Source: Candidatus Omnitrophota bacterium
GTDB lineage: Bacteria; Omnitrophota; Gorgyraeia; Gygaellales; Profunditerraquicolaceae
DNA: 64,000 bases
Direction of reading: 5' to 3'
NCBI GenBank assembly: GCA_041651035.1
Contig: JBAZKC010000002.1
Coordinates: 120,697 to 184,696 of the forward strand
Numbering within the stretch: the stretch's first letter is position 1; the number at the start of each line of letters is the position of its first letter. The translations under genes were made by a program, and so were the position numbers. The notes below the pieces were generated by a model that did no database searches, had not been told where the DNA came from, and worked only from the letters and a program-made list of their open reading frames with translations. Positions 7,322 through 55,427 of the stretch are shown one piece after another.

Positions 7322-8092
7322 ATGATTCGTAGGGGAAACTGGTTATTTATTACACTTTTCTTTTGCTCCAACACTTTTGCTTACGATATTAAACCTTATT
7401 TAAACCAATCTCCTTGCGAGGACGAAAAACTTAACTTGGTTTTTTGTTCTTTAAATTACCAAAATAAAGAAGATTCCTTAGAAGATACAAAGATACTTAT
7501 CCGAAGGCTAAAGGGAACCAATCCTTTTGATGAATTCAGGAACCTTGGATTTTGGTATATAGCCCTATCTAAAGAGGAAGAGAGGGAGATCTTCAAGCCA
7601 GCGCCAAGTTTTCCTCCCTGGCAAGTCCCTCAAGGCTTCATAAACAGTATCTCCAAACGCATTAAATCTGTTTACAAGTTAATCATAATTGACGCAAGAG
7701 GATATGTCTCATGTTCGGAGTTATCTTCTCTTGCTAAAACTTCTTTGATCATGTTAGGTAAGGCACGATATAAAGATGAAAACAGTTTTACTAAAGGGTT
7801 TTTGCATGAGTTGGGCCATTCTTTAGGCCTGCGTGATGAGAGTCCGCAGGGTGAAGCAATGCTTTGTTTACCCGGGCCGCCAAATTGCGCCGTTACCAGG
7901 CAGGAAGCAGAGAGGCTTTGGGGTGATCTAGTAGGAAAAGATTCAAGAGCAAATTATATTTCCGGCTGCTGCGGGAATAAGAATTATATCCGGCCAACCA
8001 TTGCTTCTTTGATGAATGATCCGGATAAGGCAGAGGATTTTGGTCCGGTGAATGAGAGGTATTTGCGCCATGTTTTAGGGATAGGCCCCTAA
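7322..8092 (+). CDS. Putative secreted zinc metallopeptidase with an HExxHxxGxxDE motif (M64-like)
   Basis: Hydrophobic N-terminus, HELGHSLGLRDES motif and a Cys-rich C-terminus. The start abuts the stop of the upstream gene. Confidence 0.5.
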   Translation: MIRRGNWLFITLFFCSNTFAYDIKPYLNQSPCEDEKLNLVFCSLNYQNKEDSLEDTKILIRRLKGTNPFDEFRNLGFWYIALSKEEEREIFKPAPSFPPWQVPQGFINSISKRIKSVYKLIIIDARGYVSCSELSSLAKTSLIMLGKARYKDENSFTKGFLHELGHSLGLRDESPQGEAMLCLPGPPNCAVTRQEAERLWGDLVGKDSRANYISGCCGNKNYIRPTIASLMNDPDKAEDFGPVNERYLRHVLGIGP

Positions 8093-18223: not shown

Positions 18224-19006
18224 ATGAATATTATTGTCTGCATAAAACAGGTTCCAGAGACTACGGAAGTCAGGATCAATCCTGAAACTAATACCTTGAT
18301 CCGTGAAGGGGTTAAATCCATAATCAATCCTTTTGATATGTATGCTATTGAAGAAGCGATAAGGCTTAAGGAAAGGTTTGGAGGCAAAGTTAGCGTTGTC
18401 ACTATGGGGCCTCCTCAGGCTGATAACGCTTTAAGAGAAGCAATTTCTCTTGGAGCGGATGAAGGGTTCCTGGTTTGCGATCGGGCTTTTGCCGGAAGCG
18501 ATACCTGGGCAACCAGTTATACTTTAGCCGGGGCAATTAAAAAAGTAGGAAGCTTTGACCTGATACTCTGCGGAAAACAGGCTTCCGACGGAGATACCGC
18601 CCAGGTTGGGCCGGGAATATCTACGCATTTGGATATACCCCAGGTGACTTACGTAAAGAAAATAGAAGAAGTAAGGGATAATATAATGCGTGTTGAAAGA
18701 ATGATGGAGGAAGGTTTTGAGATCATTGAAACGCCCTTACCGGTATTATTGACGGTTGTTAAAGAAATAAATGAACCGCGCCTGCCTTCGTTAAAAGGAA
18801 TAATGAGATCAAAGAGCGCTAAAATCACCATATTGACCCAGAAAGAGCTGGATCTTGATACGCAGAGCATTGGGCTTTGTGGTTCTCCTACGCAGGTTGT
18901 TAAAATTTTTACTCCTCCTCAGAGAGCAGGCGGCCAGATGCTTACAGGGGAAATCTCTGAGATAGTAACAAAACTAGTAGAGTTAGTCAAAGGCGAGGTC
19001 CACTAA
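18224..19006 (+). CDS. etfB: Electron transfer flavoprotein, beta subunit
   Basis: MNIIVCIKQVPE N-terminus; EtfB fold. Confidence 0.9.
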   Translation: MNIIVCIKQVPETTEVRINPETNTLIREGVKSIINPFDMYAIEEAIRLKERFGGKVSVVTMGPPQADNALREAISLGADEGFLVCDRAFAGSDTWATSYTLAGAIKKVGSFDLILCGKQASDGDTAQVGPGISTHLDIPQVTYVKKIEEVRDNIMRVERMMEEGFEIIETPLPVLLTVVKEINEPRLPSLKGIMRSKSAKITILTQKELDLDTQSIGLCGSPTQVVKIFTPPQRAGGQMLTGEISEIVTKLVELVKGEVH

Positions 19007-19007
19007 T

Positions 19008-20231
19008 ATGCCTATCACTATAATCGTAGAAAAATGCACCGGTTGCGCGCTTTGTATGAAGGCCTGCCCTTTTGATGCCATACGTATGGTGGAGAAAAAA
19101 GGCCTGCCTGCCGGCAGGCAGGCGGTAATAGATTTGAATAAGTGCAATCTCTGCGGCGCATGCCTAGATGCCTGTAAATTCAAGGCGGTTTTACTTGAGA
19201 AAGACGTTAATAAATGCGCTTTACCCGATATTAAAGATCATAAAGGAATTTGGGTTTTTATAGAGCAGAAGAACGGGAAAATCCAGTCGATTTCCTATGA
19301 GCTTTTAGGAAAAGCCCAGGAGCTCTCCCAGAAATTAGGCTGCCAGGTCAGCGGCGTCCTGATCGGTAATAACCTTACCGACCAATTGGATGAAGTCATT
19401 TGGCACGGCGCGGATAATATTTATCTGGTTGAGGCGCCGGAAATCGCTAATTTTCAGGATGAACCCTACACCAATATACTGGTTGAATTGATCAGGAAAT
19501 ACAAGCCTGAGATCTTCTTATGCGGGGCAACTGCCATCGGCCGTTCTTTGATCTCCCGCGTGGCGATTAAGATCAAGGCAGGGCTTACCGCGGATTGCAC
19601 GGGCCTGGATATTGATCCTGCCAGGAAAATACTTTTACAGACCCGCCCCGCGTTCGGCGGAAATATTATGGCTACCATCATCAGCCCGAATTACCGTCCG
19701 CAGATGGCAACAGTGCGCCATAAAGTAATGCAGCCGATGGAGCCTGATAAAAAGAGGAAGGGCAAGATCATCAGAGAAAAATTTGACGCTAAAGTATATT
19801 TCTCGCGCACGAAACTTCTGGATATTGTTGAAGAAGTGGAGTCTTTGGTAAATATTGCCGAAGCGGATATTATTGTTTCCGGCGGCCGAGGTATGGGAGG
19901 CCCTGAAAATTTCAAACTCTTAGAGGATCTGGCGCATGTATTAGGAGCCGCGGTTGGCGCTTCCCGGGCGGCTGTAGATTCCGGCTGGAAGCCTTATTCC
20001 CATCAAGTAGGCCAGACCGGCAGGACAGTCGCTCCTAAAATGTACATTGCCTGCGGTATCTCGGGCCAGATCCAGCACTTAGTCGGTATGCAGTCATCCA
20101 AGATCATCGTGGCTATTAATAAAGACCCCGATGCCCCTATTTTTAAAGTAGCTACCTATGGTATTGTCGGGGATCTTTTTACGGTCATACCGGCCTTAAC
20201 CAAAAAGTTTAAAGAAGTTCTCAGGAAATAA
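19008..20231 (+). CDS. etfA: Electron transfer flavoprotein alpha subunit with an N-terminal 2x[4Fe-4S] ferredoxin domain (CarE/FixB-like)
   Basis: [12 protein letters not shown] and [11 protein letters not shown] cluster motifs, then an EtfA domain with an FAD-binding C-terminus. Confidence 0.85.
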
Positions 20232-20338: not shown

Positions 20339-20689
20339 ATGTCAAGCATATCCTTTGAAGAAAAAAGGTCGTTTCCCAGATTTCCTATCAAGATCCCATT
20401 AGTATGCCTAGACGAAAATTCTAATAAGGACTTGGAAGCCGCCGAGGTGTTTGATATAAGCGCGCAAGGGATAGGTATAATTACAAATGAAGAGTTATCT
20501 TTGGGTGTACGCCTAAATATAACCTTGAAGATGCCTGATAACGGAGAGCAGGTCTCCCGTAAAGGCAAGGTTATCTGGATAAGAAAGATCCAGCCCGTAA
20601 AATACAGGACAGGCGTCAAATTAGAAGAGCCAAAAATAAAACCGATCCCGCTGGTGCTAAGAATCATAAATTTTCAAAGGAAATATTAA
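20339..20689 (+). CDS. PilZ-domain protein (c-di-GMP binding)
   Basis: RxxxR motif (RSFPR) and DxSxxG motif (DISAQG). Confidence 0.75.
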   Translation: MSSISFEEKRSFPRFPIKIPLVCLDENSNKDLEAAEVFDISAQGIGIITNEELSLGVRLNITLKMPDNGEQVSRKGKVIWIRKIQPVKYRTGVKLEEPKIKPIPLVLRIINFQRKY

Positions 20690-20861: not shown

Positions 20862-21053
20862 ATGATGGAAAGGAAAGCTATGAACGGCGGATTAATGACC
20901 ATAGAAGACCTATCAGATTACCTGAAAGTTACACGCAGGACAATTTATGACTGGGTAAAACACAATAAGATCCCCGCGGTTAAGTTGGTTGGCCAGTGGA
21001 GATTTAAAAAAGATAAGATTGATGCCTGGATTGAGAACAGGTCGCTACATTAA
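20862..21053 (+). CDS. Small HTH_17 (excisionase/MerR-like) DNA-binding protein. The start is possibly the ATG at 20880, which follows SD aaggaaag.
   Basis: MTIEDLSDYLKVTRRTIYDWVKHNKIPAVKLVGQWRFKKDKIDAWI fits the HTH_17 pattern. Confidence 0.65.
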   Translation: MMERKAMNGGLMTIEDLSDYLKVTRRTIYDWVKHNKIPAVKLVGQWRFKKDKIDAWIENRSLH

Positions 21054-21067
21054 AGGGAGAAAAGTAT

Positions 21068-24000
21068 ATGTATTTTAAAAAATTGGAATTAATCGGTTTT
21101 AAATCCTTTTGTGATAAAACGGTTTTACATTTTGAGCCGGGTATTACCGCGGTTGTCGGGCCAAACGGCTGCGGAAAAAGCAATATCTTTGATTCTATAC
21201 GCTGGGTCCTGGGGGAGCAGTCAGCCAAATCCCTGCGCGGTTCAGAAATGCAGGACGTAATTTTTAACGGTACGGATTCAAAAGAAGGAGTAGGATTAGC
21301 TGAAGTCAGCTTGACTTTTGATAATGAAAAAAGGTTTTTTAATATAGATCATCCTGAGGTATCTATAACCAGGAGGCTTTTCCGCTCGGGAGAGAGCGAG
21401 TATCTGTTGAATAAAACCCCCGTGCGCTTAAAGGATATCCTGGACCTGCTTATGGGCACCGGTATCGGGGCGGAAAGTTATTCTATAGTAGCACAGGGTA
21501 AAATTGACATGGTATTAAGCTCCCGGCCTGAAGACAGGCGTTTGGTTTTTGATGAGGCAGCCGGTATTACCAAATACAAATCGCAGAAAAGAGAGACATT
21601 GAGGAGGCTGGAAGAAACCGAGCAGAACCTCTTGCGGGTTAACGACATTATTACGGAAGTAAAACGCCAGATAGGAAGCCTTGAGCGGCAGGCAAATAAG
21701 GCGCGTAAATATAAAGAAGTATTCGAAGAGTTGAAGTCCAGGGAAATAAGTCTATCGGTTTTAGAAAAGCAGGGGCTTTTTAAGCAGAAAGAAGAGATCA
21801 TCAGCCAATTAAAAGAGTTAGAGCTTAATGAGGCCGCTTTATTAAGCGCGATTCGCCAGCAGGAATCCAGTGTGGCGGGGCGCCAGGCAGAACTAAAACA
21901 ACAGGAAGAAAACTCGATAGCCATAAGAAATCAAATATTAAGCCTGGAGAACCTCATAGTAAGGAATAATGAACACGTAAGTTACAATAAAGAGAAGGTT
22001 GTGGAATTAACCCAGAATTTAGAGCATTTAGAAAACCAGATAGGGCAAGTAAGAAACAGGATTATTCTAGACGAAGAGAAACTGGCCCAGGTTAAAGACG
22101 CCTATGGGAACGTAAAGAAAAACATTGAAGCAAAATCGCTAGTGCTCGCGGAAAAAGAGAACCAGATCAATATCCTGGCGTCTTCCATTAAGAATTCGCT
22201 GGAAACCATAGCCAATTCCAAGAAACAGATCATGGATTTCGCTAATAAGATCGCTAACGCTAAGAATGAGATCTCCGATTTTAGCGCCAAAGAACAGATA
22301 TATCTGGCGCGCAAGAAAAGGCTGGAGATAGAAAAGGCAAAGGTTTTTGAAGAGAAATCCGTGACAGAGGAGAGTTTGACCGTTGTTACCCAAGAGGTAG
22401 AGTCTTTAAAGAAGGTAGTAGAAAGTATTAACCTTAAGACCTCCGGCATAAAAAATGATCTGGAGCAAGAAGGGTTAGTCTTAACCAATATCAATGCGGA
22501 TATTCTGGGTGTAGAGAGGCAGAGGCTGGCCCTGGAGTCCCAGAAGGAATTCCTGGAAAAACTAAAGAGTAAATACGAAGATATAGGAGAGGCGCTTAAC
22601 GCGGTTATCTATCTGGATAAGCTGCCTTCTGAGAATATGAGCGGCCTGGTGGTCAAGGTGAGGGACCAGGTCAATTTAAGCGATGAAGATAAGGTTATTT
22701 TAAAACCGGCAAATTTTAAATTGTCAGGAGAAGCCAAGCCCATTGAATTAGATACCCAGAAAATAGATGAAAAGATAAGCCATCTCCAGGATAAACTGGG
22801 AGTCCTAAAGAATGAAAAGGCCGCCAAGGAAGCCCGGGTTGAAGAATTAAATAATGCCATTCTTCTGCTTCAGCAGGATTTACGCAATCAAGAGATCGCG
22901 CTGGCAAATAAAGATACCTCGCGCCTGACTATATTGGAACAGTTTAATAAGATAGAGGAAGAAGAAGATATCATAGTCATGGAACTCCAGGACGTCGGAA
23001 ACGAGATCTCCGTCTTAGAAAAGAATATAGAAGTTTCCCAGTCGCGTTTATCCGAGTTAAATAAAGAGCAGCACCAGATAGAAGGGCTGATCTTACAAGA
23101 AGAAGATAATATATCCGAAAATAGCGGATTAAGGGAAGAGGTGCTGGTGGTCATCACCCAGACAAAGACCGAACTGGAAAATCTTAATAAAAGTATAATT
23201 TCCGACGAGTCTACTCTCAGGATACTCGAAGGTACCTATAAGCAGGACTTAGAGAGCCTGGCGAATATAGAGAAACAGATTTGCGACGGGGGAGCTAAAA
23301 AAGAATCACTCGCGCTGGAGATCGCGGATGCCGAAACAAAGGTCATTCGTTTTAATAAAGAGATAGAAGAGCAGAACAATTTGCTAAAAGAAGCGGAAGC
23401 TAAATACCGCCAGGATACGGAAGGCGCAAGCGGAATGCTTGGTAAAATAGAATCGGACAGGGCAGAACTTGATACCATAAAGAATAAGTTGTATGAATTG
23501 CAGATGCGCGATAAAGATATAGATTATAAGTACAGGAGCATAAAAGACAGGCTGCTGCAGGCTTATAAAATAGATTTGGAGAGCCTGGATAATACCGCTA
23601 CCCCTGAGGATATGAATACGGTTTCGCAGGAAATAGAAAAACTAAAAGAAAAATTAGATTCTTATGGAACGGTAAACCTTGTGGCTATTGAGGAATACGA
23701 CGAATTAAAAAAACGTTATGATTTCCTGGTCCATCAGCAGAACGACCTTTTATCCGCCAAGGAGTCCCTGCACCAGGCGATACTTAAAATAAATCGCACT
23801 ACCAAGCAAATGTTCCTGGAGACCTTTGAGAAAGTGCGCGAGGAGTTCCGTAATTATTTCAGGCTGCTTTTTAACGGCGGGGACGCGCAGGTATTCTTGG
23901 TTGATGAGCAGGATCCTTTGGAGTCGGGGATCGAGATTATCTGCAGGCCTCCGGGTAAGAAATTGCAGAATGTTTTATTGCTTTCCGGTGGAGAAAAATC

Positions 24001-24307
24001 GCTTTCCGCGATAGCGCTTATATTTGCTATTTTTAAGGTGAAGCCGTCGCCATTCTGCATATTAGACGAGATAGACGCGGCCCTTGATGAAGCAAACGTA
24101 ACCAGGTTTTCAGGGATGCTGCAGGAGTTTACTAAAACCTCACAGTTTATAGTGATCACACATAATAAGAAGACAATTATCAACGCGAACGTGATGTATG
24201 GTATTACCATGCAGGAATCAGGCGTGTCTAAGATCGTATCGGTTAAATTTGCCAAGCAGGAAGCCGCGCCCGTGCCTGATCCCGTGCCTGAGCCGGAACC
24301 TGTTTAG
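21068..24307 (+). CDS. smc: Chromosome segregation protein SMC, 1079 aa, apparently lacking a canonical hinge domain
   Basis: Canonical N-terminal head (GPNGCGKSN Walker A, RWVLGEQSAK) and C-terminal head (LSGGEKSLSAIALIFA, ILDEIDAALD). Two ~330-aa coiled-coil arms are joined by a ~55-aa segment. No GRATFLPL or GG-rich hinge motif is seen. Confidence 0.8.
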   Translation: MYFKKLELIGFKSFCDKTVLHFEPGITAVVGPNGCGKSNIFDSIRWVLGEQSAKSLRGSEMQDVIFNGTDSKEGVGLAEVSLTFDNEKRFFNIDHPEVSITRRLFRSGESEYLLNKTPVRLKDILDLLMGTGIGAESYSIVAQGKIDMVLSSRPEDRRLVFDEAAGITKYKSQKRETLRRLEETEQNLLRVNDIITEVKRQIGSLERQANKARKYKEVFEELKSREISLSVLEKQGLFKQKEEIISQLKELELNEAALLSAIRQQESSVAGRQAELKQQEENSIAIRNQILSLENLIVRNNEHVSYNKEKVVELTQNLEHLENQIGQVRNRIILDEEKLAQVKDAYGNVKKNIEAKSLVLAEKENQINILASSIKNSLETIANSKKQIMDFANKIANAKNEISDFSAKEQIYLARKKRLEIEKAKVFEEKSVTEESLTVVTQEVESLKKVVESINLKTSGIKNDLEQEGLVLTNINADILGVERQRLALESQKEFLEKLKSKYEDIGEALNAVIYLDKLPSENMSGLVVKVRDQVNLSDEDKVILKPANFKLSGEAKPIELDTQKIDEKISHLQDKLGVLKNEKAAKEARVEELNNAILLLQQDLRNQEIALANKDTSRLTILEQFNKIEEEEDIIVMELQDVGNEISVLEKNIEVSQSRLSELNKEQHQIEGLILQEEDNISENSGLREEVLVVITQTKTELENLNKSIISDESTLRILEGTYKQDLESLANIEKQICDGGAKKESLALEIADAETKVIRFNKEIEEQNNLLKEAEAKYRQDTEGASGMLGKIESDRAELDTIKNKLYELQMRDKDIDYKYRSIKDRLLQAYKIDLESLDNTATPEDMNTVSQEIEKLKEKLDSYGTVNLVAIEEYDELKKRYDFLVHQQNDLLSAKESLHQAILKINRTTKQMFLETFEKVREEFRNYFRLLFNGGDAQVFLVDEQDPLESGIEIICRPPGKKLQNVLLLSGGEKSLSAIALIFAIFKVKPSPFCILDEIDAALDEANVTRFSGMLQEFTKTSQFIVITHNKKTIINANVMYGITMQESGVSKIVSVKFAKQEAAPVPDPVPEPEPV

Positions 24308-25485
24308 CAACAGGTGCTATTTTTGCCTTTACGTTTCGCCTGATAGAGGGTTTTGTCGGAAGCGGTGATTAATTCGGAAGGACTGTATCCATCACCTGGA
24401 AAACTCGCCAGGCCCAGGCTTGCGGTTAATTTCTTCTGGGGCAGTATTTCTTCATGAGTAAACGCGTGTTTTTCAATATCCGCCCTTAAGCGCTCAGCAA
24501 TTAAAAAAGCCTCTTTCTTATCTGTCACGGGCAGAATAATAGTAAATTCCTCCCCTCCGTAACGGCAGACAAAATCCATTTTTCGCGATTGATTCTTAAG
24601 CAATGTAGCCAGTTCTTTTAATATTTTATCTCCGGCCTGGTGGCCCAGCGTGTCGTTATAGACCTTAAAATCATCGATATCCAGCATGATCAGGCTTAAG
24701 GGGGATCCTGTTATTTTAGACTTTTCCATTTCCGCCTGGAGCAGGTATTGAAAATAGCCGTGATTCCATAGGTCGGTAAGAGGATCCATATGCGCCAGCA
24801 TGACTGTTTTTTCGTAAAGCTGGGAATTTTCTATTGCCAACCCTGCCTGGTTGGAAAGCATAATGAGCATACGCAGGTCATCTTTAGTGATAGGTTTCTT
24901 GGTAATGAAATTATCGGCCGCTATTATGCCTTTTACTTTATCTTTTGCCCGTAATGGCGTTAAAACCATCTCCTCGCTGTTTAGCATCTGCACTATTGAG
25001 GAGTTTTTATAATTTTGTATGGTTTCTTTAGTTAAATGCAGGGGCATTCCTTCCAGTGCCACCAAAGTCAATAAATCTTCATTTTTCTCCTGCAGGGAAA
25101 ATCTTAAGTGCTGGGTTTGCCGGTTAAAACCGGATTCAAATACCTTGTTGGAGAATTTGTAAGCGTTGATCAAATCCTCCAGGTCCATTTTCTCCTGCTC
25201 TATTTGAGTCCAGATACGGTTCGCTTCTTCCCCTGTTTCCGGGCCGATGCCCATTTTACCTTCGATTATGCCGTCTTTCTCGTTAACCAGAAACAACAGC
25301 GCCCGGTTAAAACCCAACGCTGTGTGCGCGGTTACGCCGGTGAGGATAATATAGAGGATCTCATCGAGCTTTAAAGTGGTGCGCATGGCATTGGATATCT
25401 CGTATAGAATGCCCAGCTCGGTTTTTGTCCGTTCAAGATCCTGTTTAAGCGCGGCTATGTTTTCCATAATCATAGACTTTAACAT
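24304..25485 (-). CDS. GAF-GGDEF diguanylate cyclase
   Basis: N-terminal GAF-like domain. RYGGEEF active-site motif. Confidence 0.8.
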   Translation of the reverse strand: MLKSMIMENIAALKQDLERTKTELGILYEISNAMRTTLKLDEILYIILTGVTAHTALGFNRALLFLVNEKDGIIEGKMGIGPETGEEANRIWTQIEQEKMDLEDLINAYKFSNKVFESGFNRQTQHLRFSLQEKNEDLLTLVALEGMPLHLTKETIQNYKNSSIVQMLNSEEMVLTPLRAKDKVKGIIAADNFITKKPITKDDLRMLIMLSNQAGLAIENSQLYEKTVMLAHMDPLTDLWNHGYFQYLLQAEMEKSKITGSPLSLIMLDIDDFKVYNDTLGHQAGDKILKELATLLKNQSRKMDFVCRYGGEEFTIILPVTDKKEAFLIAERLRADIEKHAFTHEEILPQKKLTASLGLASFPGDGYSPSELITASDKTLYQAKRKGKNSTCC

Positions 25486-31701: not shown

Positions 31702-32328
31702 ATGATCGCGAGAATTTCAGGGAAGGTAATTGAAAAAGGGGATAATTATCTTATCCTTGATACGGGTGGTATCTGTTATGAGGTGTTTATTCCGCAAACA
31801 GTTATGCAGCGCCTGGAAGAGAATATAAAGGACGGCTGCGCGTTGACCTTAAAGACTTTTCATTATTTCCAGGTTGAGCCGTCAAAGACTACTCCGGTAT
31901 TAATAGGGTTCTTAAATGACATTGAGAAAGATTTCTTTGAGATATTTATTACTGTTTCCGGTATAGGGCCGAGGGCGGCGTTAAGGGCGTTAAATAAGCC
32001 CATATCAGAGATCGCGCAGGCCATAGACAGCGGGGACCTGAATTTCTTAAGATCCCTGCCCGGCATAGGTGAACAAAGGGCAAAGGAAATTATCGCGAAG
32101 CTTCAGAATAAAGTTGCTAAATTCGGCCTGATAAAGAACGATAAGATAAAAGAAAAAGCGGGAGAATCCGGAGATACCGCCCAGGAAGTCCTGGCCGTGC
32201 TTATGCAGTTAGGTTATAAGAAACCTGAGGCAGCGGGTATGATAAAAACAGCCCTGGAGAAATCACCCGATATACAAACAACGGAAGAATTACTGAATGT
32301 GGTTTATAAGCAGAGGAAATCAAGGTAG
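31702..32328 (+). CDS. ruvA: Holliday junction DNA helicase subunit RuvA
   Basis: N-terminus MIARISGKV...GICYEV and HhH motifs. Confidence 0.85.
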   Translation: MIARISGKVIEKGDNYLILDTGGICYEVFIPQTVMQRLEENIKDGCALTLKTFHYFQVEPSKTTPVLIGFLNDIEKDFFEIFITVSGIGPRAALRALNKPISEIAQAIDSGDLNFLRSLPGIGEQRAKEIIAKLQNKVAKFGLIKNDKIKEKAGESGDTAQEVLAVLMQLGYKKPEAAGMIKTALEKSPDIQTTEELLNVVYKQRKSR

Positions 32329-32330
32329 AT

Positions 32331-32945
32331 ATGCCGGAAGATAACGTAAAGTCGGTAATAGAAGCATTACTTTTTGCCAGCGATAAGCCCTTGACTATTG
32401 AACAGGCAAAGAATGTTTTAGGCAGCTTGGAAGCCGCTGAAATACGCGCGATACTGGAACAGTTAAAATCAGAATACGAACATTCTAACCGCGGCATACG
32501 CATTGCCGAAATAGCGGGTGGTTTCCAGATGACTACCGCGCCTGATTTTGCTGTTTTCTTAAAGAAGCTGTTTAAAGAACGCCACGCGGATAAATTATCA
32601 AAACCTGCCTTAGAGACTTTGGCTATTGTTGCCTATAAACAGCCGGTAACTAAAGCAGAAATAGAGTCTTTGAGGAATGTGAACGTTGATGGGGTAATGA
32701 GCAGTCTTTTGGATAAAGAGCTTATTCGCATTTCGGGAAGAAAAAAGGTTCCCGGCCGGCCGTTTGTATTCGGCACAACCAGGGAGTTCCTGGAATGTTT
32801 CGGGTTAAGGTCTTTAGACGATCTGCCAAAAAAAGAAGAATTCGGCTCTTTAGCCAAAGAGAATGATGTGGAAGTGATCCCTGAAGAAGAAAACCAGACA
32901 ACGGAGGTAGCTAATGACTCTTGCAAGCCTGCGCAGACAAATTGA
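32331..32945 (+). CDS. scpB: Segregation and condensation protein B
   Basis: VIEALLFAS...P winged-helix ScpB signature. Confidence 0.85.
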   Translation: MPEDNVKSVIEALLFASDKPLTIEQAKNVLGSLEAAEIRAILEQLKSEYEHSNRGIRIAEIAGGFQMTTAPDFAVFLKKLFKERHADKLSKPALETLAIVAYKQPVTKAEIESLRNVNVDGVMSSLLDKELIRISGRKKVPGRPFVFGTTREFLECFGLRSLDDLPKKEEFGSLAKENDVEVIPEEENQTTEVANDSCKPAQTN

Positions 32946-41914: not shown

Positions 41915-44659
41915 ATGCAAAAACAGCCCACCAGGGTATTATCAATCTGTATAATTCTATTTTTATGCCTGACTACCAGTTCGGCTTTTGCCGCGTCTCA
42001 GGCAGCGCAGTATCTTTCTGAATTCGGCGCCACATTTTATCGCATGGGTAAGTTTGATGATGCCTTAGGCGAGTTTGAAAAAGTGCTCATGATTGAGCCT
42101 GATAACCAAGAGGCAAAAGCCTATATCAGGCTTATTTTTCAGAAGGAAGCGGCAGTACGCGCTCAAGCTCAAGTTAATCCCCTGGCAAAATCTTCAATAG
42201 GCGGGGCACCGGATGTAGATAATGTTAAACCAAGCCGGGAAGACGCGATCTCGAATACTTTAAACCAATTAGACAGTGAAAGTTCTTATGGGAAAAAACC
42301 AGGCACATCTTTAAATAAAGGCATAGTAATAAGCGGAGAAGCAATGCTGAGCCTGGGCGTTACGCCTCATGATGTGATCTGGAAACGGGCTAATTTTGAC
42401 TTAAACGAGGAATATCAAAGCTGGCGCAGGAATTCCACCGCGGTTTTTAACCGTGGTTTTAATACTTATGACCCGAGGGTTTATGATTCGCTGGTTATAA
42501 ACGCGGATACTCAAAATAAAGAAGGCTTCAATTTCCATACCAATATTACGATAGATCCCTGGAGTTTTGTAGGTAAGAGCGACAAGATCACGGTTACCGG
42601 TTCCAACGGCGATACCGCCCAGTTGCAGCTGTATTACTGGTCCAACACCGGTTATGTGGTAAATGACACGGCATATACTTCCTCTAAGGGGGATAGTTTC
42701 GGGATCCCCGAAGTAAAAGTAAAAAATGGAATATCCGATGGTTTTACTTCCACTTCTTACCGCTTAGGCGCCACTTACGATGTCCCCGCCATGAAGATCA
42801 AGCGGGAGTTCCAGCCGTTGCGCGAGTTATGGCTGAATTATAATAATGACCAGCTGAAATTCAGGGCGTTTCCCATGTCTTATCAGGACCAGGCTTATTC
42901 TTCAGATGATCCCATGGGGATAACTAATCACGGTATATGGTGGAACGAAAGTAAGTGGCTGCGCCAGTATACGCCAGGCAATTATAACTCCGGGGATACG
43001 ACACCCAGTTATACTAAGGGCTATTGGAATGACGCTCTTTCTTCCTTAAGTAAAGATTCTACCGGCAAATATTTAACCGCTTTAAGAGGTTTCTCTTTCA
43101 CCATCCAGCCGCAGGAACAGGTTTCTTTTGACACTACTATTGCCACGCCTAAAAACCTCTGGCAGGATTATGGACAGGTAGATAACATTATTTCCGCCAG
43201 CCGCCTTAAATATAAGCCGAAAGATAACTTTATGCTGGGCAGTACCTTTACCAGCCGCACGGGATTTATAACCGAAAAAAAACAGGAACTAGACAGCCGG
43301 AACTTTGTTGCCGGAGTGGATCTAGGATATGAGATAGCTGATGGGATAAAAGCCCAGGCAGAAGCATTGGGTTCTAAGTCATACTATGATGAGAGCAATT
43401 CTAACTACAGGACACAAGACCAGGGTAACGCCTACTATTTTTCTTTAATTACCCGCTACCCCAGAGAAAGCATCATGGACTTAAAATACGGCTATGATGA
43501 AATAGGCATGAAGAAAGGGGAAACTTTCCTGACCAAAAGCAAGTTTTACGCCGCGCGCATGGATAACGGTTTTGATTCAGCGCTTTCTGATTTCCATAAT
43601 ACGCGCCAGGATGTGTTCTGGTCAAGGCATATACATTTTCGCATGCCTTTGAAATATTACAGTTCCGGGCTATATGGCAACAGGACAAATTGGGATGAGT
43701 TAAACGCTACTAAGATAGGCGACGGCATCGATATCGGCCGTAATGTTTTAGGCTACCGTTTTGAAACATTCTTAGAAAATAAATTCTATAACCTTTTTGA
43801 CGTGCGTAACGTGCACAATGTAAAAGGAAAATTCGTGGAAAACGTAGTGCGGGACGAGGCCACTATTAAAGTAACTGATAAATTGACTGCCAAGGTACTG
43901 GGAATTTACCAGAAATTACCCCGGACTACGGGCGGAGTAGACCCTTTTATATACGATGGGGTAACAGGCGATTTTTTCCTTAACTCGGCAGTCCCTGACG
44001 GAGAGGATCCTTCTATTAAAACAGGTTCCTTTGGCTTAAATTATGATTTCTTTGATTGGTTGAGTATAAATGGTATATATGAACGCACGAATGATTATAG
44101 CCTGGCGTATGGCGGTTTCCCTCAGGATGTATATATAAACAATACTACCTTGTACGGGACCTATTACCAGAATGACAAACTCTACCGCGCTATTCAGTCT
44201 TTTCTTTACAACCAGCAGTATTATCCGCAGGCGCCTTATCCTTACTACAACGTGGCTAAGGCCGGGTTAAGGTTGGCCCCGTTTAAGAATATGGAGATGT
44301 ATATTGACTATGCTTATAACGAATTCAAGGCTGCCTCCATGAATTCCGACGGCATGAACCACGTAGGCTTTGAAGTAGCCTATATGCCGACCAGCAAATT
44401 CGGCATGGCTTTAAAATATATTTTCTCGCGTTCTCAGGATATGGATCATTTACTGGCAGGTGACGACAATATGATAGGGCACCATAACTTTTTTGGAGAA
44501 TTCAGGTATCTTCCTTCTAAAGACGATGAGCTTATCCTGCAGTACGGAGAAGGCAATAGCAGCGCTATCGGCAATATGGTTTTGGACCCTTACGGTGGCA
44601 GCATGCTTACCTTAGACACGCAGCATATTTTCCGCGCTTATTATCGTAGAAAATTTTAA
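41915..44659 (+). CDS. Large secreted protein of 914 aa: signal peptide, N-terminal TPR-like segment, aromatic/Asn/Gly-rich body and C-terminal Phe. Putative outer-membrane beta-barrel.
   Basis: Signal peptide MQKQPTRVLSICIILFLCLTTSSAFAAS; TPR-like YRMGKFDDALGEFEKVLMIEPDN; terminal ...YYRRKF. Confidence 0.55.
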   Translation: MQKQPTRVLSICIILFLCLTTSSAFAASQAAQYLSEFGATFYRMGKFDDALGEFEKVLMIEPDNQEAKAYIRLIFQKEAAVRAQAQVNPLAKSSIGGAPDVDNVKPSREDAISNTLNQLDSESSYGKKPGTSLNKGIVISGEAMLSLGVTPHDVIWKRANFDLNEEYQSWRRNSTAVFNRGFNTYDPRVYDSLVINADTQNKEGFNFHTNITIDPWSFVGKSDKITVTGSNGDTAQLQLYYWSNTGYVVNDTAYTSSKGDSFGIPEVKVKNGISDGFTSTSYRLGATYDVPAMKIKREFQPLRELWLNYNNDQLKFRAFPMSYQDQAYSSDDPMGITNHGIWWNESKWLRQYTPGNYNSGDTTPSYTKGYWNDALSSLSKDSTGKYLTALRGFSFTIQPQEQVSFDTTIATPKNLWQDYGQVDNIISASRLKYKPKDNFMLGSTFTSRTGFITEKKQELDSRNFVAGVDLGYEIADGIKAQAEALGSKSYYDESNSNYRTQDQGNAYYFSLITRYPRESIMDLKYGYDEIGMKKGETFLTKSKFYAARMDNGFDSALSDFHNTRQDVFWSRHIHFRMPLKYYSSGLYGNRTNWDELNATKIGDGIDIGRNVLGYRFETFLENKFYNLFDVRNVHNVKGKFVENVVRDEATIKVTDKLTAKVLGIYQKLPRTTGGVDPFIYDGVTGDFFLNSAVPDGEDPSIKTGSFGLNYDFFDWLSINGIYERTNDYSLAYGGFPQDVYINNTTLYGTYYQNDKLYRAIQSFLYNQQYYPQAPYPYYNVAKAGLRLAPFKNMEMYIDYAYNEFKAASMNSDGMNHVGFEVAYMPTSKFGMALKYIFSRSQDMDHLLAGDDNMIGHHNFFGEFRYLPSKDDELILQYGEGNSSAIGNMVLDPYGGSMLTLDTQHIFRAYYRRKF

Positions 44660-44713: not shown

Positions 44714-47700
44714 TCACTTCCCCAAATAAATATCTATAAAATTAACCTGGCCTGATCTTATTTGTTGAGCATAGGGTGCGGGTATGATGTTAGAGGGTAT
44801 TTCAACAGGGTTGCCGCCTGCGTCATTGAATAATATCTTTTTGCAGGTAACTTTATCCTTGCCAAAGGTATCCTTGCGGAGGGAATTATAGTAGGTCACT
44901 TGTATTTTACCCAAGAAATTAAAGGTATAGGTTTTTTCTTTCTTACGGAACAGCCATCCGGCTAATAAGGGTTCAATCTTTAAGTTTAGCTCGCCCTGTT
45001 CGTTTAGAAAAAACGGGCAGGAGCCGATGTTCATGGTAAGCCAGATCTCCAGGAATTCAGCTGTCGAGCCGGACAGCCTCGCCACAAAGCCGTTGCCATG
45101 CAGATGTTTATCAGGAAAAGCGCTGCTGACTAAGAATGAGGAGTTTTCCAGTGTGCTGCGCCCGTATTGGACGGGGTCCTGAAAAGGTATAAGCACATTC
45201 TTAAAATCTTCATAGAATTCTTTATACAGGCCCTGTTTTAATATTTCTAACAGATATTTATATTCCATGTGCAGCCATATAGATTCGTTTTCCAGCCATC
45301 CCGGCGTAAATACGCGGCACCTGCCGATCTCTTCAGGCTGGCTGATAAGCGGAGCGGTTACTTTATACATCTTAAGCTTTTTATCGTAAAGTTCTCCCAG
45401 CCTTATCGCCCGGTATAAGGATCTTGCCGTGTTTATGTCTTTACAAAGTCTTAAGGCGTGCATTTGGCCTTCCAGGAAGAAGGGGAGCCTTTTCTGGATA
45501 AATTTAGTGGGTTTCACAAAGGGTTCTTTTAAGGGCTCATATTCTACCACTTCGTTTATAAAATAGGCATAATAAGTATTTCTTTTTTTATCCAGGGACC
45601 TGTCGATCCCTGTATTTACTTTCTCCAGCGCGGCATTTAAAATATCTTTTAGCTGGTTGGTTTCCATTTCTATTTCTTTACCGCTAAAGCCAAGCCGGGT
45701 TTTATGGTTATAGCCTTCTTTAAGGGAATGGCTTTTATCCCAATATTGGTAATCCGCGTCTGCCGCTTGCGAGGCATTAAAATATTCTTTTGTTAAGGAG
45801 TTTAAGCCGATAAGAAAGTTGTGGATTTCTTCGGTAACGCGCACTTTTCCTGAGTCAGCCCTGCCCAGGGCCCGCGTAATCAGCAGGATCAATCTTTTTA
45901 GCTCAAAGGTTTCGCAGAGAGAAGAGCCGAACAGGGAGGGCAGGCCATTTAAAGCATCGAACCAATTAGGCTTATCCGCTTCCATTTCGATGCCGCAGCC
46001 AAAAGGATCCAGTGAGGCCAGTTTAGTTGCCAACAGGCATAACAATTTATTAATTAGGGTAGTTTGGTATATTTCTCCCAGCCCGTACTGAGTCCTGACG
46101 ACATGAGCCTGGGTTGTTCTTTTCCGGATCATTTCTTTCTTGGCGTTGTCAGACACCAATGAATGCAGCTGCCTTACCTTACCGTACCTAAGCAGGTATT
46201 TTTCCTGCCGCGGCTTAACAGTTTCGATATTGTCGTAAAAGGTAAAAACCCTCTTATCAAAGAATATCTCCCGGTATTTTTCAGGGTAAAGGCTTAAAAA
46301 GCTATCCAGCAAATCAAGGTTATACGCCCAATGGTCTGTCCAGAATCCTTCGCCATGCTCTGCTTCCTGTAATTTCAGGGAATTAGATATAAGCAATCCT
46401 ATGAATTCATCGTATGCCGCGTTAAGTTTTATTTTATTTTCTTCGATAAAAAAGATCAGTTCCCCGGGGGTAAATCCCGTCAAGTAGCGTTTATCCTGGG
46501 GCGCGGATTTATCAGGCGGGGCATCCAGTTTATCCAGGAATGAAGCGATCTTTAAAATATCTTCTTCTCCCGCCAAACCCTTTAAGAGTATTCTTAAATC
46601 CGTTCCTTCTTTTAGTTTAAAGCTCGTGCCTTTGATTATTAAAGGATTAAAGCCGTCTGCCTGCAGAAGATTAAAGAAATAGATCAGGTTCTCGTCTTTT
46701 ATACCAGGGTTAAACCAGGCATCGCTTCTGCGGTTTTGATTCATATCGCGGTAATTACCGTTACCTTGCGAAAAATAAGCGGGCTGTAATTGGAATTTAT
46801 TATAATCTCTTTCTAGGTCTCCGTGTTTCCGGGAATAGAGATAGAACACAGAATCAGAAAGCGTGAGCGGGTAGCCGCCGCGCATAACATTGTCTAGGTA
46901 TGTCTGCTTAGCGTAGAGATCAAAGTGCCTGGAACTAGAGACTGTGGCTATATCGGACTCTATGCCGCTGATAATATTTTTATTTTCTTCTTTTTTCCGC
47001 GCGAGGTATCCGGCAGCGGTAATTTTATTAAGGGATGTATTCAGCATTTCCACGCTACTCATGGAACCTGCCACAGAGCAGAATACTTTTTCTTCGCAGT
47101 CGGATAATTCAAAGTTAAAGAGCAGGAAGGCGCAAGGGGTCTTACTTTTGGTTATTTGTTCTTTAGGATACCGAAAATTATTCGCGGCCAGGAATTCATG
47201 AGGCAAAGAGAAATCGGCAGGCGGGCCGAATATACACTGGGGATCTACTATAGGTTTTATGATCTTCGGCTTTTCCGGTCCGGGGAGAAAACCCAGGTAG
47301 AAATTACCTTCTTTTATATGAATGACTTCCGGCCTGTCTGAAGGGTCAACATCCAGTTTATAGAAAGGAGCACCTTTATCAAGGTTTTCCACGTTCATCC
47401 ATGCTTCTATGGTGCGGCTCATTTTCTTGAGGAAGAAGTTATTGACACCGTATGGCACGATTTGAGGCAGGCCGTCAAGTAATTGTATTTTCTTAGCGGA
47501 ACGCCCGGAATTTTTAATAGTTACTATTCTGGCTAGGCCGGCATAAGAATCATTGGGAATGTTGAAATATTCTACCTTTACTTTAAGGCCCAGGGATATA
47601 TTATCCTCTTCCAGCGTTAAGCCGGATGAAGAGACGCGCATTGAGTTGGCAATATTGAATCCTGAATTTACGGATCCATTCTGAAACGGCTCATAAAATA

Positions 47701-48001
47701 TCGTTTTCTTCCCTCGGGGGGATACTTTAATAAAAGTGCGGAAGCCCTGGGAGGAAGCCATCTGCCAGGCTTTGTTGGCAGGAAAAAATTCTAATATGGA
47801 GTGATCCTTGTCTTTTATACCGAAACTGGATATGGCTTGCCCGCGGTTAACGTAGAATACCCACATGGGTATGCCGTATTTACCGGCGATACCGGGGAAA
47901 AAGTTGGCGAATGGCTTAGAAGAGTTGTAGTTCTCTATAACGAACTCTCCCTCTTCGTTAAGGTAATATTTTGGTTTCTTATCTTTTGGATTTTTAACCA
48001 T
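44714..48001 (-). CDS. Large cytoplasmic GH94-like glycoside phosphorylase-family protein of 1095 aa, possibly 1,2-beta-oligoglucan/cellobiose phosphorylase-like
   Basis: The N-terminal pattern EFVIENYNSSKPFANFFPG...GFRTFIKV resembles the GH94 N-terminal domain (E[YF]VI..P..W.NY.G...YFYI). The size is similar to ~1080-aa GH94 oligoglucan phosphorylases. Recalled by pattern only. Confidence 0.4.
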   Translation of the reverse strand: MVKNPKDKKPKYYLNEEGEFVIENYNSSKPFANFFPGIAGKYGIPMWVFYVNRGQAISSFGIKDKDHSILEFFPANKAWQMASSQGFRTFIKVSPRGKKTIFYEPFQNGSVNSGFNIANSMRVSSSGLTLEEDNISLGLKVKVEYFNIPNDSYAGLARIVTIKNSGRSAKKIQLLDGLPQIVPYGVNNFFLKKMSRTIEAWMNVENLDKGAPFYKLDVDPSDRPEVIHIKEGNFYLGFLPGPEKPKIIKPIVDPQCIFGPPADFSLPHEFLAANNFRYPKEQITKSKTPCAFLLFNFELSDCEEKVFCSVAGSMSSVEMLNTSLNKITAAGYLARKKEENKNIISGIESDIATVSSSRHFDLYAKQTYLDNVMRGGYPLTLSDSVFYLYSRKHGDLERDYNKFQLQPAYFSQGNGNYRDMNQNRRSDAWFNPGIKDENLIYFFNLLQADGFNPLIIKGTSFKLKEGTDLRILLKGLAGEEDILKIASFLDKLDAPPDKSAPQDKRYLTGFTPGELIFFIEENKIKLNAAYDEFIGLLISNSLKLQEAEHGEGFWTDHWAYNLDLLDSFLSLYPEKYREIFFDKRVFTFYDNIETVKPRQEKYLLRYGKVRQLHSLVSDNAKKEMIRKRTTQAHVVRTQYGLGEIYQTTLINKLLCLLATKLASLDPFGCGIEMEADKPNWFDALNGLPSLFGSSLCETFELKRLILLITRALGRADSGKVRVTEEIHNFLIGLNSLTKEYFNASQAADADYQYWDKSHSLKEGYNHKTRLGFSGKEIEMETNQLKDILNAALEKVNTGIDRSLDKKRNTYYAYFINEVVEYEPLKEPFVKPTKFIQKRLPFFLEGQMHALRLCKDINTARSLYRAIRLGELYDKKLKMYKVTAPLISQPEEIGRCRVFTPGWLENESIWLHMEYKYLLEILKQGLYKEFYEDFKNVLIPFQDPVQYGRSTLENSSFLVSSAFPDKHLHGNGFVARLSGSTAEFLEIWLTMNIGSCPFFLNEQGELNLKIEPLLAGWLFRKKEKTYTFNFLGKIQVTYYNSLRKDTFGKDKVTCKKILFNDAGGNPVEIPSNIIPAPYAQQIRSGQVNFIDIYLGK

Positions 48002-54448: not shown

Positions 54449-54892
54449 ATGCTTACGGACAATCAGATAATCTTACGCTTAACGTTATCTGTGCTCTTAA
54501 GCGGGCTTATCGGCATTGAACGCCAATGGCACCGCCGCACCGCGGGACTGCGCACCCATATTCTGGTTTGTCTCGGGTCTTGCCTTATCATGTTGACATC
54601 GTTGTATCTTTTTGATATATATAAAGATCAGGTCCCTCTGGATCCCGCGCGTATCGCTGCCGGAGTCATTACCGGTATCGGCTTTCTGGGAGCAGGCGCG
54701 ATCATCAGGGCAAGAGAAGGCGTAAAAGGGCTTACTACTGCCGCCAGCCTTTGGGTGGTCGCCGGGATTGGTTTAGCCATAGGATGCGGATTCTGGAAAG
54801 CGGGAGTTTTTACTGCCATACTGTCTTTGGTTGTTCTTCTGTTTTTAGGGCACATAGAAACAAGGATGTTCGGCAAAGAAGAAAGGTGGTGA
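54449..54892 (+). CDS. mgtC: MgtC/SapB-family membrane protein
   Basis: RLTLSVLLSGLIGIERQWHRRTAGLRTH signature. Confidence 0.8.
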   Translation: MLTDNQIILRLTLSVLLSGLIGIERQWHRRTAGLRTHILVCLGSCLIMLTSLYLFDIYKDQVPLDPARIAAGVITGIGFLGAGAIIRAREGVKGLTTAASLWVVAGIGLAIGCGFWKAGVFTAILSLVVLLFLGHIETRMFGKEERW

Positions 54893-54896
54893 TACC

Positions 54897-55400
54897 ATGG
54901 CTTTTAAGAAGAAATCGGAAGAGAAGATTCTTGATGTTGATGCTGCGATGCAGGGAAGCCTGGTTTTTAAGGATCCGGTAAGCATACGTATCAACGGCAA
55001 ATTTGAAGGAGACCTGGAAACCAGGGGTAATTTAACCATCAGTGCTACGGCAATAGTAGTGGCCGATATTGTAGGCGACAATATCATTATCGGAGGCAAG
55101 GTCAAGGGAAGAGTGACTGCCAAAGAAAGGCTGACCCTTTTACCTACGGCGGTAGTTGAAGGCGATGTGTATCCGGCGAAATTGAATATTGCCGAAGGCG
55201 CTATACTGGAAGGCAACTGTTTGATGCTCCATGATTTCTTAAACCCTGAAGAACTGGCCAGATACCTGGAGGTAGATTTGAATTCTATTATGGAATGGGC
55301 TAATTCAGGCAAGATGCCGGGGAATAAAGAAGGGAGCAACTGGAAGTTTGAAAGAAAGGCTATTGATTCCTGGGTTGCCTCCGGCAAGATAGAAAAATAG
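54897..55400 (+). CDS. Bactofilin-domain protein fused to a C-terminal HTH_17 DNA-binding domain
   Basis: Bactofilin beta-helix repeats (RINGKFEGDLETRGNLTISATAIVVADIVGDNIIIGGKVKGRVTA...). The C-terminus NPEELARYLEVDLNSIMEWANSGKMPGNKEGSNWKFERKAIDSWV fits HTH_17. Confidence 0.65.
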   Translation: MAFKKKSEEKILDVDAAMQGSLVFKDPVSIRINGKFEGDLETRGNLTISATAIVVADIVGDNIIIGGKVKGRVTAKERLTLLPTAVVEGDVYPAKLNIAEGAILEGNCLMLHDFLNPEELARYLEVDLNSIMEWANSGKMPGNKEGSNWKFERKAIDSWVASGKIEK

Positions 55401-55427
55401 CTAATAGGCGGCTGATAAGATAAACTT

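What the first reader, a model, noticed from the sequence alone, without database searches (positions are those of the whole stretch)
21068..24307. SMC with canonical ATPase heads but an apparently missing or miniaturised hinge domain
The protein is 1079 aa, about 100 aa shorter than typical bacterial SMC. Both head halves are clearly SMC. The two predicted coiled-coil arms of roughly 330 aa each are joined by only about 55 residues (GEALNAVIYLDKLPSENMSGLVVKVRDQVNLSDEDKVILKPANFKLSGEAKPIEL). This segment lacks the conserved hinge Gly motifs such as GRATFLPL. A hinge-less or mini-hinge SMC would be mechanistically unusual, because the hinge mediates dimerisation and DNA gating. The partner gene scpB is present at 32331.
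Basis: partly seen in the sequence, partly recalled or inferred. Interest (0 to 1): 0.55.

Follow-up and report, generated by a model that had tools for sequence, protein, structure and literature searches.

The report
SMC with a miniature replacement hinge
This is the normal chromosome-organising SMC ATPase of an Omnitrophota bacterium, but its roughly 175-residue hinge domain has been replaced by a conserved module of about 55 residues built around a beta-hairpin, showing that nature can swap out a part usually regarded as a hallmark of SMC proteins.

Summary
ORF 21068-24307 (+) encodes an intact 1079-aa SMC. It passes the bacterial SMC model TIGR02168 (869 bits, cutoff 567) and all ATPase motifs are intact. 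It has no Pfam SMC_hinge match even at E<=10. Only 48-73 residues join the two arms, against 172-191 in canonical relatives, and the arm lengths are unchanged (334 and about 315 aa). This is not an assembly artefact. More than 115 clusters at 90% identity and about 27 clusters at 50% identity, named Candidatus Omnitrophota where a name exists, share the architecture, and the linker is strongly conserved. Canonical-hinge and mini-hinge SMCs of this group occupy the same conserved locus (ETF-HTH_17-smc-GGDEF), so they are positional orthologs and the hinge was exchanged in place. AlphaFold (pLDDT 91) models the linker as an extended segment plus a long beta-hairpin between the arm helices. Neither profile nor fold searches link it to any known hinge, hook or other fold. 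The most likely function, which is inferred, is a minimal dimerisation module. A "hinge-less" SMC clade was reported in marine Actinobacteria in 2025; I found nothing for Omnitrophota. Not tested: dimerisation, and whether a second SMC is absent from the same genome.

The parts
21068..24307 (+). smc gene, 1079 aa, mini-hinge type
   Evidence: ORF; TIGR02168 869 bits against cutoff 567; SMC_N 2.5e-76; B. subtilis Smc head 3zgx 1.8e-141
21068..21577 (+). N-terminal half of the ATPase head (residues 1-170), with Walker A GPNGCGKSN at 31-39 and Q-loop Q143
   Evidence: Motifs read and invariant across 38 short and canonical relatives; PDB alignment
21578..22579 (+). N-terminal coiled-coil arm (residues 171-504). 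The junction motif SQKEFLEKLKSKYE at its end is shared with canonical SMCs
   Evidence: Arm length is 334 residues in the S1 and canonical classes and 334-335 in S2. AF2 helix 461-504 has pLDDT >90 except near the hinge junction. hhalign shows flank homology
22580..22753 (+). Mini-hinge (residues 505-562): conserved extended segment NAVIYLDKLP, beta-strand 526-536, short helix 539-544, beta-strand 550-559 (GEAKPIELD)
   Evidence: Conservation. AF2 with diverse alignment gives mean pLDDT 90.9 and 82-91 in this region. No PF06470 hit. hhalign against canonical hinge core gives probability 1.9%. S1 against S2 cores gives probability 91%, E 1e-6
22643..22675 (+). Beta-strand 1 of the hairpin (residues 526-536, GLVVKVRDQVN). 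L527, V528 and V531 are hydrophobic in 95-100% of sequences and V529 in 81%; K530 is basic in 90%
22715..22744 (+). Beta-strand 2 of the hairpin (residues 550-559, FKLSGEAKPI). K557 is basic in 100% of 59 diverse sequences and K551 in 81%
22754..23707 (+). C-terminal coiled-coil arm (residues 563-880)
   Evidence: About 315 residues in all classes. AF2 helix 563-620 has pLDDT >90 except at its ends
23708..24256 (+). C-terminal half of the ATPase head (residues 881-1063): signature LSGGEK 972-977, Walker B CILDE 997-1001, D-loop, H-loop H1032
20862..21053 (+). Small HTH_17 gene (63 aa) ending 14 bp before smc. This is a conserved upstream neighbour of both mini-hinge and canonical smc in this group
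   Evidence: PF12728 7e-18. The same gene is present in loci L025, L026, L028, L111 and L113
24304..25485 (-). Convergent GAF-GGDEF gene overlapping the smc stop codon by 4 nt. It serves as a synteny anchor shared with canonical-hinge smc loci
   Evidence: ORF. It is 49% identical (E 2e-127) to the gene next to canonical smc P0146. The same neighbour appears
18224..20231 (+). ETF beta and Fer4-ETF alpha genes, upstream synteny anchors
   Evidence: The same genes lie upstream of smc in S1, S2, P0139 and canonical P0166 loci
32331..32945 (+). scpB (kite subunit of Smc-ScpAB)
   Evidence: PF04079 1.6e-56

Best explanation
This is the housekeeping Smc of an Omnitrophota bacterium, the ortholog of canonical bacterial Smc, which works with ScpB and presumably ScpA. 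The ancestral doughnut-forming hinge of about 175 residues has been replaced in place by a conserved module of about 55 residues. Shown: the heads, all ATPase motifs, the N-terminal arm/hinge junction and both arm lengths are unchanged, and only the inter-arm module differs. Shown at the level of a structure prediction: the module is an extended hydrophobic segment (AVIYL) followed by a long two-stranded beta-hairpin with a short helix at its tip, placed between the two antiparallel arm helices. Inferred: two such modules pair through their hydrophobic strands into a small intermolecular beta-sheet or barrel, much as prefoldin subunits are held together. This would give a constitutive Smc dimer whose arms can still zip into a rod and whose heads and kleisin close the ring. 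Under this reading the complex loads onto and translocates along DNA as ordinary Smc-ScpAB does. That would make the canonical hinge fold dispensable, as it is in the engineered B. subtilis Smc-zinc-hook chimera. The conserved lysines K530, K551 and K557 may retain a DNA contact, but this is speculative.
For: It is a real gene and a true SMC. The hinge is absent: there is no PF06470 hit while the controls are positive, the inter-arm segment is 48-73 aa against 172-191 aa, and the arms are constant at 334 and about 315 aa. The feature is lineage-wide and under selection: all listed relatives at 64-78% identity lack PF06470, 115 of them are 1066-1096 aa (the other five carry an intein), and linker residues are near-invariant. 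About 27 clusters at 50% identity, down to 36% identity, share the architecture. S1 and S2 mini-hinges are mutually homologous (hhalign 91%, E 1e-6). Orthology is supported by shared position: mini-hinge (S1, S2, P0139) and canonical-hinge (P0146, P0143, P0166) genes sit in the same block, ACAD-ETFb-ETFa-(PilZ)-HTH_17-smc-GAF/GGDEF-(ColV-NIF3-dnaG-rpoD), and the GGDEF neighbour is 49% identical, E 2e-127. The structure model has mean pLDDT 90.9 and places a beta-hairpin between the arm helices. Hydrophobic positions 512-516, 527-529, 531, 550, 552, 556, 559 and 561 are conserved across 59 diverse sequences; two strands alone could hardly bury this much hydrophobic surface, which points to a partner surface. 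Plausibility from the literature: B. subtilis Smc with a Rad50 zinc hook in place of the hinge supports normal growth on rich medium (PMC5344682). scpB is present in the window.
Confidence: 0.6

Rival explanations
1. It is a specialised SMC paralog that coexists with a canonical Smc in the same genome and performs a different task, such as defence or repair, so the loss of the hinge says nothing about housekeeping Smc function.
For: Canonical-hinge SMCs named Candidatus Omnitrophota exist at 40-45% identity. NJ trees do not resolve the short class as one clade. Same-genome absence of a canonical copy was not tested (one search failed).
Against: Short and canonical genes occupy the same conserved chromosomal position with orthologous neighbours. 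No second SMC lies within 10 kb of any inspected locus or anywhere in the 64-kb window. The protein scores above the TIGR02168 equivalog cutoff, its branch lengths are similar to those of canonical relatives, and its arm lengths are identical. PMC12153180 states that no SMC duplication is known in any prokaryote.
Confidence: 0.1
2. The mini-module does not dimerise on its own. The linker merely caps the folded-back coiled coil, and the two Smc chains are held together only by arm-arm contacts, head engagement and the kleisin, or the protein acts as a single-armed ATPase.
For: No dimer evidence was obtainable. AF2 folds the module confidently as a monomer. PMC12153180 describes an actinobacterial clade whose models simply lack a hinge.
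Against: Purifying selection is strong on many hydrophobic positions of a very small beta element. Two strands plus a short segment can hardly bury these positions in a monomer. The module length of 48-73 aa is retained across lineages that have diverged to 30% identity, rather than shrinking to a tight turn. Every characterised SMC-like ATPase has some apical dimerisation device (general knowledge of hinges, the MukB hinge and the Rad50 hook).
Confidence: 0.2
3. The module is a highly diverged remnant of the canonical hinge, an internal deletion that kept the first and last strands, and is not a new element. It would then dimerise through the same strand-exchange logic as one half-interface of the canonical hinge.
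For: Homology runs uninterrupted through the N-terminal junction into the start of the module (hhalign global 96.5%). A positional echo exists between sGLVVKV and the first hinge strand G.lAdLIe. Both the module and the end of canonical hinges contain a G-E dipeptide after a hydrophobic strand (alignment).
Confidence: 0.3
4. It is an artefact: a mis-assembly, a collapsed repeat or a decaying pseudogene.
For: None beyond the short length.
Against: There are no Ns and the frame is intact. More than 140 independent clusters from NCBI, JGI, ENA and Logan assemblies share the architecture. The module itself is conserved.
Confidence: 0.01

Closest known systems
Canonical bacterial Smc of Smc-ScpAB (B. 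subtilis / T. maritima type; TIGR02168)
   Same: ATPase head and all motifs, the N-terminal arm/hinge junction motif, arm lengths identical to those of canonical relatives, ScpB encoded nearby, and the same chromosomal locus as canonical Omnitrophota smc.
   Different: The PF06470 hinge domain and its glycine-rich dimer interface are absent. A beta-hairpin module of about 55 aa stands in their place.
'Hinge-less' SMC clade of marine Actinobacteria (PMC12153180, 2025)
   Same: Natural SMC homologues with a normal head and coiled coil, no canonical hinge and no CXXC zinc hook. The authors judged them unlikely to be paralogs.
   Different: They come from a different phylum and are described as simply lacking a hinge. 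Here a conserved, structured mini-domain is present, canonical orthologs exist at the same locus in relatives, and the arm length is unchanged. Any relationship between the two clades was not tested.
Engineered B. subtilis Smc(Zh) chimera with the P. furiosus Rad50 zinc hook in place of the hinge (PMC5344682)
   Same: An SMC with native heads and arms and a small, unrelated apical module. The chimera supports normal growth on rich medium, which shows the principle is viable.
   Different: That protein is artificial and zinc-dependent, with a CXXC motif. The Omnitrophota module is natural, and no sequence examined has a CXXC motif (some have a single cysteine).
Prefoldin subunits (for example 1FXK)
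   Same: The topology is helix, beta-hairpin, helix, with the two helices forming an antiparallel coiled coil. In prefoldin the hairpins assemble into a beta-barrel that holds the oligomer together. Prefoldin is the only recurring hit with this topology.
MukB, RecN and Rad50/SbcC (other SMC-like ATPases with non-canonical apices)
   Same: Long antiparallel coiled coils with a small or different apical dimerisation element.
   Different: The heads here are true Smc. Rad50 and RecN models score far below their cutoffs (63 against 700 bits and 43 against 408 bits), no MukB family is hit, and there is no zinc hook.

Membership tests
Bacterial Smc (TIGR02168, Smc-ScpAB) | Whole-protein score above the curated equivalog cutoff | tested here: met
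   869 bits against cutoff 567
Bacterial Smc (TIGR02168, Smc-ScpAB) | ABC-type head with Walker A, Q-loop, signature motif, Walker B, D-loop and H-loop | tested here: met
   GPNGCGKSN, Q143, LSGGEK, CILDE, DAALD and H1032 are present and invariant in 38 relatives. The head matches 3zgx at 1.8e-141
Bacterial Smc (TIGR02168, Smc-ScpAB) | Two coiled-coil arms of about 300-350 aa that fold back on each other | tested here: met
   Arms of 334 and about 315 aa, identical to those of 40 canonical relatives. The hinge-proximal helices are modelled as an antiparallel pair, largely at pLDDT >90. The full arm was not modelled
Bacterial Smc (TIGR02168, Smc-ScpAB) | SMC_hinge domain (PF06470) with conserved glycine-rich dimer interface | tested here: not met
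   No hit at E<=10. Controls were positive. hhalign core against core gives probability 1.9%. Only 48-73 residues are available
Bacterial Smc (TIGR02168, Smc-ScpAB) | Partner subunits ScpA (kleisin) and ScpB (kite) | tested here: inconclusive
   ScpB is present (PF04079 1.6e-56). ScpA was not found among about 30 window ORFs. The rest of the genome was not available
Bacterial Smc (TIGR02168, Smc-ScpAB) | Orthology with canonical smc (same locus, single copy) | tested here: inconclusive
   Positional orthology is shown. Single-copy status in the genome was not tested (one search was uninformative)
Bacterial Smc (TIGR02168, Smc-ScpAB) | Homodimerisation at the apex of the arms | not testable with these tools
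   Only monomer structure prediction was available
Rad50/SbcC | CXXC zinc hook at the coiled-coil apex, and a family HMM score above cutoff | tested here: not met
   Residues 505-562 contain no cysteine, and no relative has a CXXC motif. Rad50 models score 63 bits or less against cutoffs of 700 or more
RecN | TIGR00634 score above cutoff | tested here: not met
   43 bits against cutoff 408
Hinge-less SMC clade of marine Actinobacteria (PMC12153180) | SMC head and coiled coil with no hinge and no zinc hook | tested here: met
   The architecture matches in outline. A structured mini-domain is present here
Hinge-less SMC clade of marine Actinobacteria (PMC12153180) | Phylogenetic membership in that clade | not tested
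   Sequences of that clade were not retrieved. All named relatives here are Omnitrophota apart from one protein named Margulisiibacteriota
Prefoldin-like helix-hairpin-helix fold | Significant structural match | tested here: not met

The most novel reading that the evidence does not exclude
The module of about 55 residues is a previously undescribed SMC dimerisation fold, a beta-hairpin 'clasp'. It replaced the canonical hinge in the housekeeping Smc of a large part of the phylum Omnitrophota. It may have moved between lineages as a cassette by recombination: P0139 carries the module although the rest of its protein and its synteny resemble canonical-hinge lineages. If so, the canonical hinge, with its proposed DNA-gate and DNA-binding roles, would not be required for Smc-ScpAB function in nature.
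Probability: 0.45. Interest if true: 0.75.

Novelty: new variant of a known kind. Interest (0 to 1): 0.62.

Why it matters
The hinge is treated as a defining, universally conserved part of SMC proteins. It has been credited with dimerisation, DNA binding and, in cohesin, a DNA entry gate. This finding offers a natural case of an otherwise ordinary Smc that carries a minimal module unrelated by sequence and fold searches, while close relatives at the same locus keep the canonical hinge. It therefore provides matched natural pairs for asking what the hinge contributes beyond holding two arms together. It complements the engineered zinc-hook chimera (PMC5344682) and the recent actinobacterial hinge-less clade (PMC12153180). 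It also has a practical consequence for annotation: NCBI names these proteins only 'AAA family ATPase' or 'hypothetical protein', so Omnitrophota genomes may wrongly appear to lack SMC.

Tried and rejected

2. A trial on viral contigs served only to show that output is sorted by E-value and truncated.

3. An exact look-up of the window protein found nothing on record.

4. A PDB sequence search with the 100-residue mid-section gave only chance hits (pyruvate kinase, E about 1).

5. The first AF2 run with a shallow alignment (sequences at least 64% identical over their full length) gave a low-confidence module (pLDDT 59-69). It was superseded by the run with a diverse alignment.

7. The NJ phylogeny could not settle single versus multiple origin, and no maximum-likelihood software was available.

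8. I looked for ScpA in about 30 window ORFs and found none.

9. I considered and rejected these readings:
   - assembly artefact;
   - pseudogene;
   - Rad50/SbcC, RecN or MukB identity;
   - a complete but divergent hinge (too few residues).
Full report
OBSERVATION. The ORF at 21068-24307 (+) is an intact 1079-codon frame. It has a strong ribosome-binding site, and there are no Ns anywhere in the window. Pfam gives SMC_N at 2.5e-76, spanning residues 3-1054, and no SMC_hinge (PF06470) match even at E<=10. NCBIfam's bacterial SMC equivalog TIGR02168 scores 869 bits against a cutoff of 567. It does so in two stretches, the first ending at residue 517 of both protein and profile. The Rad50, RecN and archaeal SMC models are all far below their cutoffs. 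The two head halves match the solved B. subtilis Smc head (3zgx) at 1.8e-141, and no hinge-domain chain matches. Walker A, Q-loop, signature motif, Walker B, D-loop and H-loop are all present and invariant in an alignment of 38 relatives. ScpB at 32331-32945 is confirmed (PF04079, 1.6e-56).

NOT AN ARTEFACT AND NOT PRIVATE TO THIS GENOME. A search of 5.8 billion proteins lists 119 relatives at 64-78% identity besides the protein itself. None has PF06470. 115 of the 120 listed proteins are 1066-1096 aa and five are longer because of an intein. Every source name but one gives Candidatus Omnitrophota or Omnitrophica (the exception is noted below), and NCBI calls them only 'AAA family ATPase' or 'hypothetical protein'. 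Within this family the linker is among the best-conserved stretches of the central region. N511, A512, Y515-L516-D517, P520, G526-L-V, K530 and G554-E-A-K-P-I-E-L-D-T are 90-100% conserved. An exhaustive phmmer search of 1.84 billion cluster representatives at 50% identity splits the top 150 hits cleanly. One group of about 27 full-length proteins (1058-1129 aa) matches the query in one continuous stretch, down to 36% identity. The other group, of 1160-1235 aa, matches in two stretches that break at query residues about 515 and 565. In a joint alignment I measured the segment between conserved arm anchors. It is 48-70 residues in clade S1 (18 representatives including the query), 51-58 in clade S2 (8 representatives) and 73 in the singleton P0139. 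It is 172-191 in 40 canonical relatives. The N arm is 334 residues in S1 and the canonical class (334-335 in S2) and the C arm is about 315 in every class. A Pfam control behaved as expected. Four canonical relatives hit PF06470 at 1e-24 to 1e-26 (residues about 525-638), and four distant short ones do not hit it at E<=1.

RELATION TO THE CANONICAL HINGE. Profile-profile comparison of the short class against the canonical class is significant when the flanks are included (hhalign 96.5%). Homology runs through the junction motif S-x-x-E-F-L-E-x-L-x-x-x-Y-E into the start of the module. With the flanks removed, only a 10-column echo of the first hinge strand remains, at 1.9% probability. In contrast, the S1 and S2 modules are homologous to each other over their full length (91%, E 1e-6). 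The module is thus a distinct, shared element. Whether it is an extreme remnant of the hinge or a new insertion cannot be decided from sequence.

ORTHOLOGY. Named canonical relatives (P0145, P0146) are also Candidatus Omnitrophota, as is a member of S2. Genomic context is decisive.
- Close S1 relatives show ACAD-ETFb-ETFa-PilZ-HTH_17-smc-GAF/GGDEF(-)-recA-htrA-recX-alaS-hisD-hisB, with the order of ETF and PilZ varying. This is the window's own order apart from htrA, which is absent between recA and recX here.
- A distant S1 member, P0128, shows ETFb-ETFa-HTH_17-ACP-smc-GGDEF(-)-ColV-NIF3-dnaG-rpoD.
- S2 member P0188 shows ACAD-ETFb-ETFa-smc-GGDEF-NIF3-dnaG-rpoD.
- Canonical P0143 shows HTH_17-smc(PF06470)-GGDEF(-)-ColV-NIF3-dnaG-rpoD.
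- Canonical P0166 shows ETFb-UROD-ETFa-smc(PF06470).
- Short P0139 shows ACAD-ETFb-UROD-ETFa-...-smc.
- Canonical P0146 is followed by a convergent GAF-GGDEF gene that is 49% identical to the window's (E 2e-127).

Mini-hinge and canonical smc genes are therefore positional orthologs, and the hinge was exchanged in place. This argues strongly against a specialised paralog. PMC12153180 notes that no SMC duplication is known in prokaryotes.

ORIGIN. NJ trees on 997 non-hinge columns give S2 88% and S1 52% bootstrap support, and S1+S2 together 46%. P0139 never joins S1 (0 of 100) and sits among canonical sequences. A single origin for S1+S2 is plausible but unresolved. P0139 hints at either a second origin or transfer of the module by recombination.

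STRUCTURE. AlphaFold2 on residues 461-620 with a shallow alignment gave confident arms and a weak module (pLDDT 59-69). With a diverse S1+S2 alignment of residues 476-600, the model reaches mean pLDDT 90.9 and pTM 0.71, with 82-91 in the module. The elements are:
- helix 477-503;
- an extended segment 504-525;
- strand 526-536;
- helix 539-544;
- strand 550-559;
- helix 563-599.

MECHANISM (inferred). Such a small beta element with this many conserved hydrophobic positions is unlikely to be self-sufficient. The simplest reading is that two modules pair into an intermolecular sheet or small barrel, as prefoldin hairpins do. This would give the constitutive apical dimer that every SMC-like ATPase needs. 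Because the arm lengths and the N-terminal junction are untouched, the arms can still align as a rod and transmit the ATPase cycle. This is consistent with the finding that arm length and integrity, and not the hinge fold, are critical in B. subtilis, where a Rad50 zinc hook can replace the hinge (PMC5344682). I put about 0.9 on 'true orthologous Smc with a replaced hinge' and about 0.6 on 'the module is the dimerisation device'.

NOVELTY. Full-text searches found no paper that links Omnitrophota with an SMC hinge. The nearest precedent is an abundant 'hinge-less' SMC clade placed in marine Actinobacteria (PMC12153180). The present case differs in four ways: the phylum, a conserved structured mini-domain, demonstrable positional orthology with canonical-hinge relatives, and unchanged arms. 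I rate it a new variant of a known kind, of real interest to SMC specialists but not unprecedented.

LIMITS.
- Dimerisation, ScpA partnership and single-copy status are untested.
- The phylogeny is distance-based only.
- Taxonomy rests on source names.
- One close relative, P0109, is named Margulisiibacteriota, which may reflect mis-binning.

Noticed in passing
window 20862-21053 (+); also L025 9810-9989, L028 7538-7708, L111 1347-1547, L113 9522-9698: A 56-66 aa HTH_17 (PF12728, 7e-18 in the window) gene sits directly upstream of smc, ending 14 bp before its start codon here. It is conserved next to both mini-hinge and canonical-hinge smc in this group. It may be a co-transcribed DNA-binding partner or regulator of Smc.
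   Followed up: partly
relatives P0033, P0040, P0044, P0071, P0105, P0121 (1605-1642 aa): Several mini-hinge SMCs carry an intein with a LAGLIDADG homing endonuclease (PF14528, PF14890). In P0121 it is inserted inside Walker A, between K37 and S38 (GPNGCGK|CLQY...AHN|SNIF).
   Followed up: partly
window 24304-25485 (-): A GAF-GGDEF diguanylate cyclase gene converges on smc and overlaps its stop codon by 4 nt. The smc-GGDEF adjacency is conserved across S1, S2 and canonical-hinge loci (49% identity to the neighbour of P0146), and a PilZ gene lies just upstream (20339-20689). This is an unexplained stable linkage of c-di-GMP genes with smc.
   Followed up: partly
window 44714-48001 (-): A 1094-aa ORF with no Pfam family at E<=1e-3. 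The adjacent 914-aa ORF (41915-44659, +) has only sub-threshold TPR matches.
   Followed up: no
window 7322-8092 (+) and 54845-55561 (-): ORFs of 256 aa and 238 aa with no Pfam match. They were checked as possible ScpA candidates and are not ScpA by Pfam.
   Followed up: partly
window 21158-21184 (Walker A codons): The Walker A motif reads GPNGCGK, with Cys where I recall most SMCs having Ser. The variant is shared by mini-hinge and canonical relatives and also occurs in SMCs of many other phyla.
   Followed up: partly
protein P0109: A 66%-identical mini-hinge SMC is named Candidatus Margulisiibacteriota by NCBI, while all other named relatives are Omnitrophota. This may be mis-binning or a transfer.
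   Followed up: no
window 31702-32945: scpB directly follows ruvA and overlaps the start of a chorismate mutase/prephenate dehydratase gene. No scpA is adjacent, although as I recall scpA-scpB usually form an operon.
   Followed up: partly
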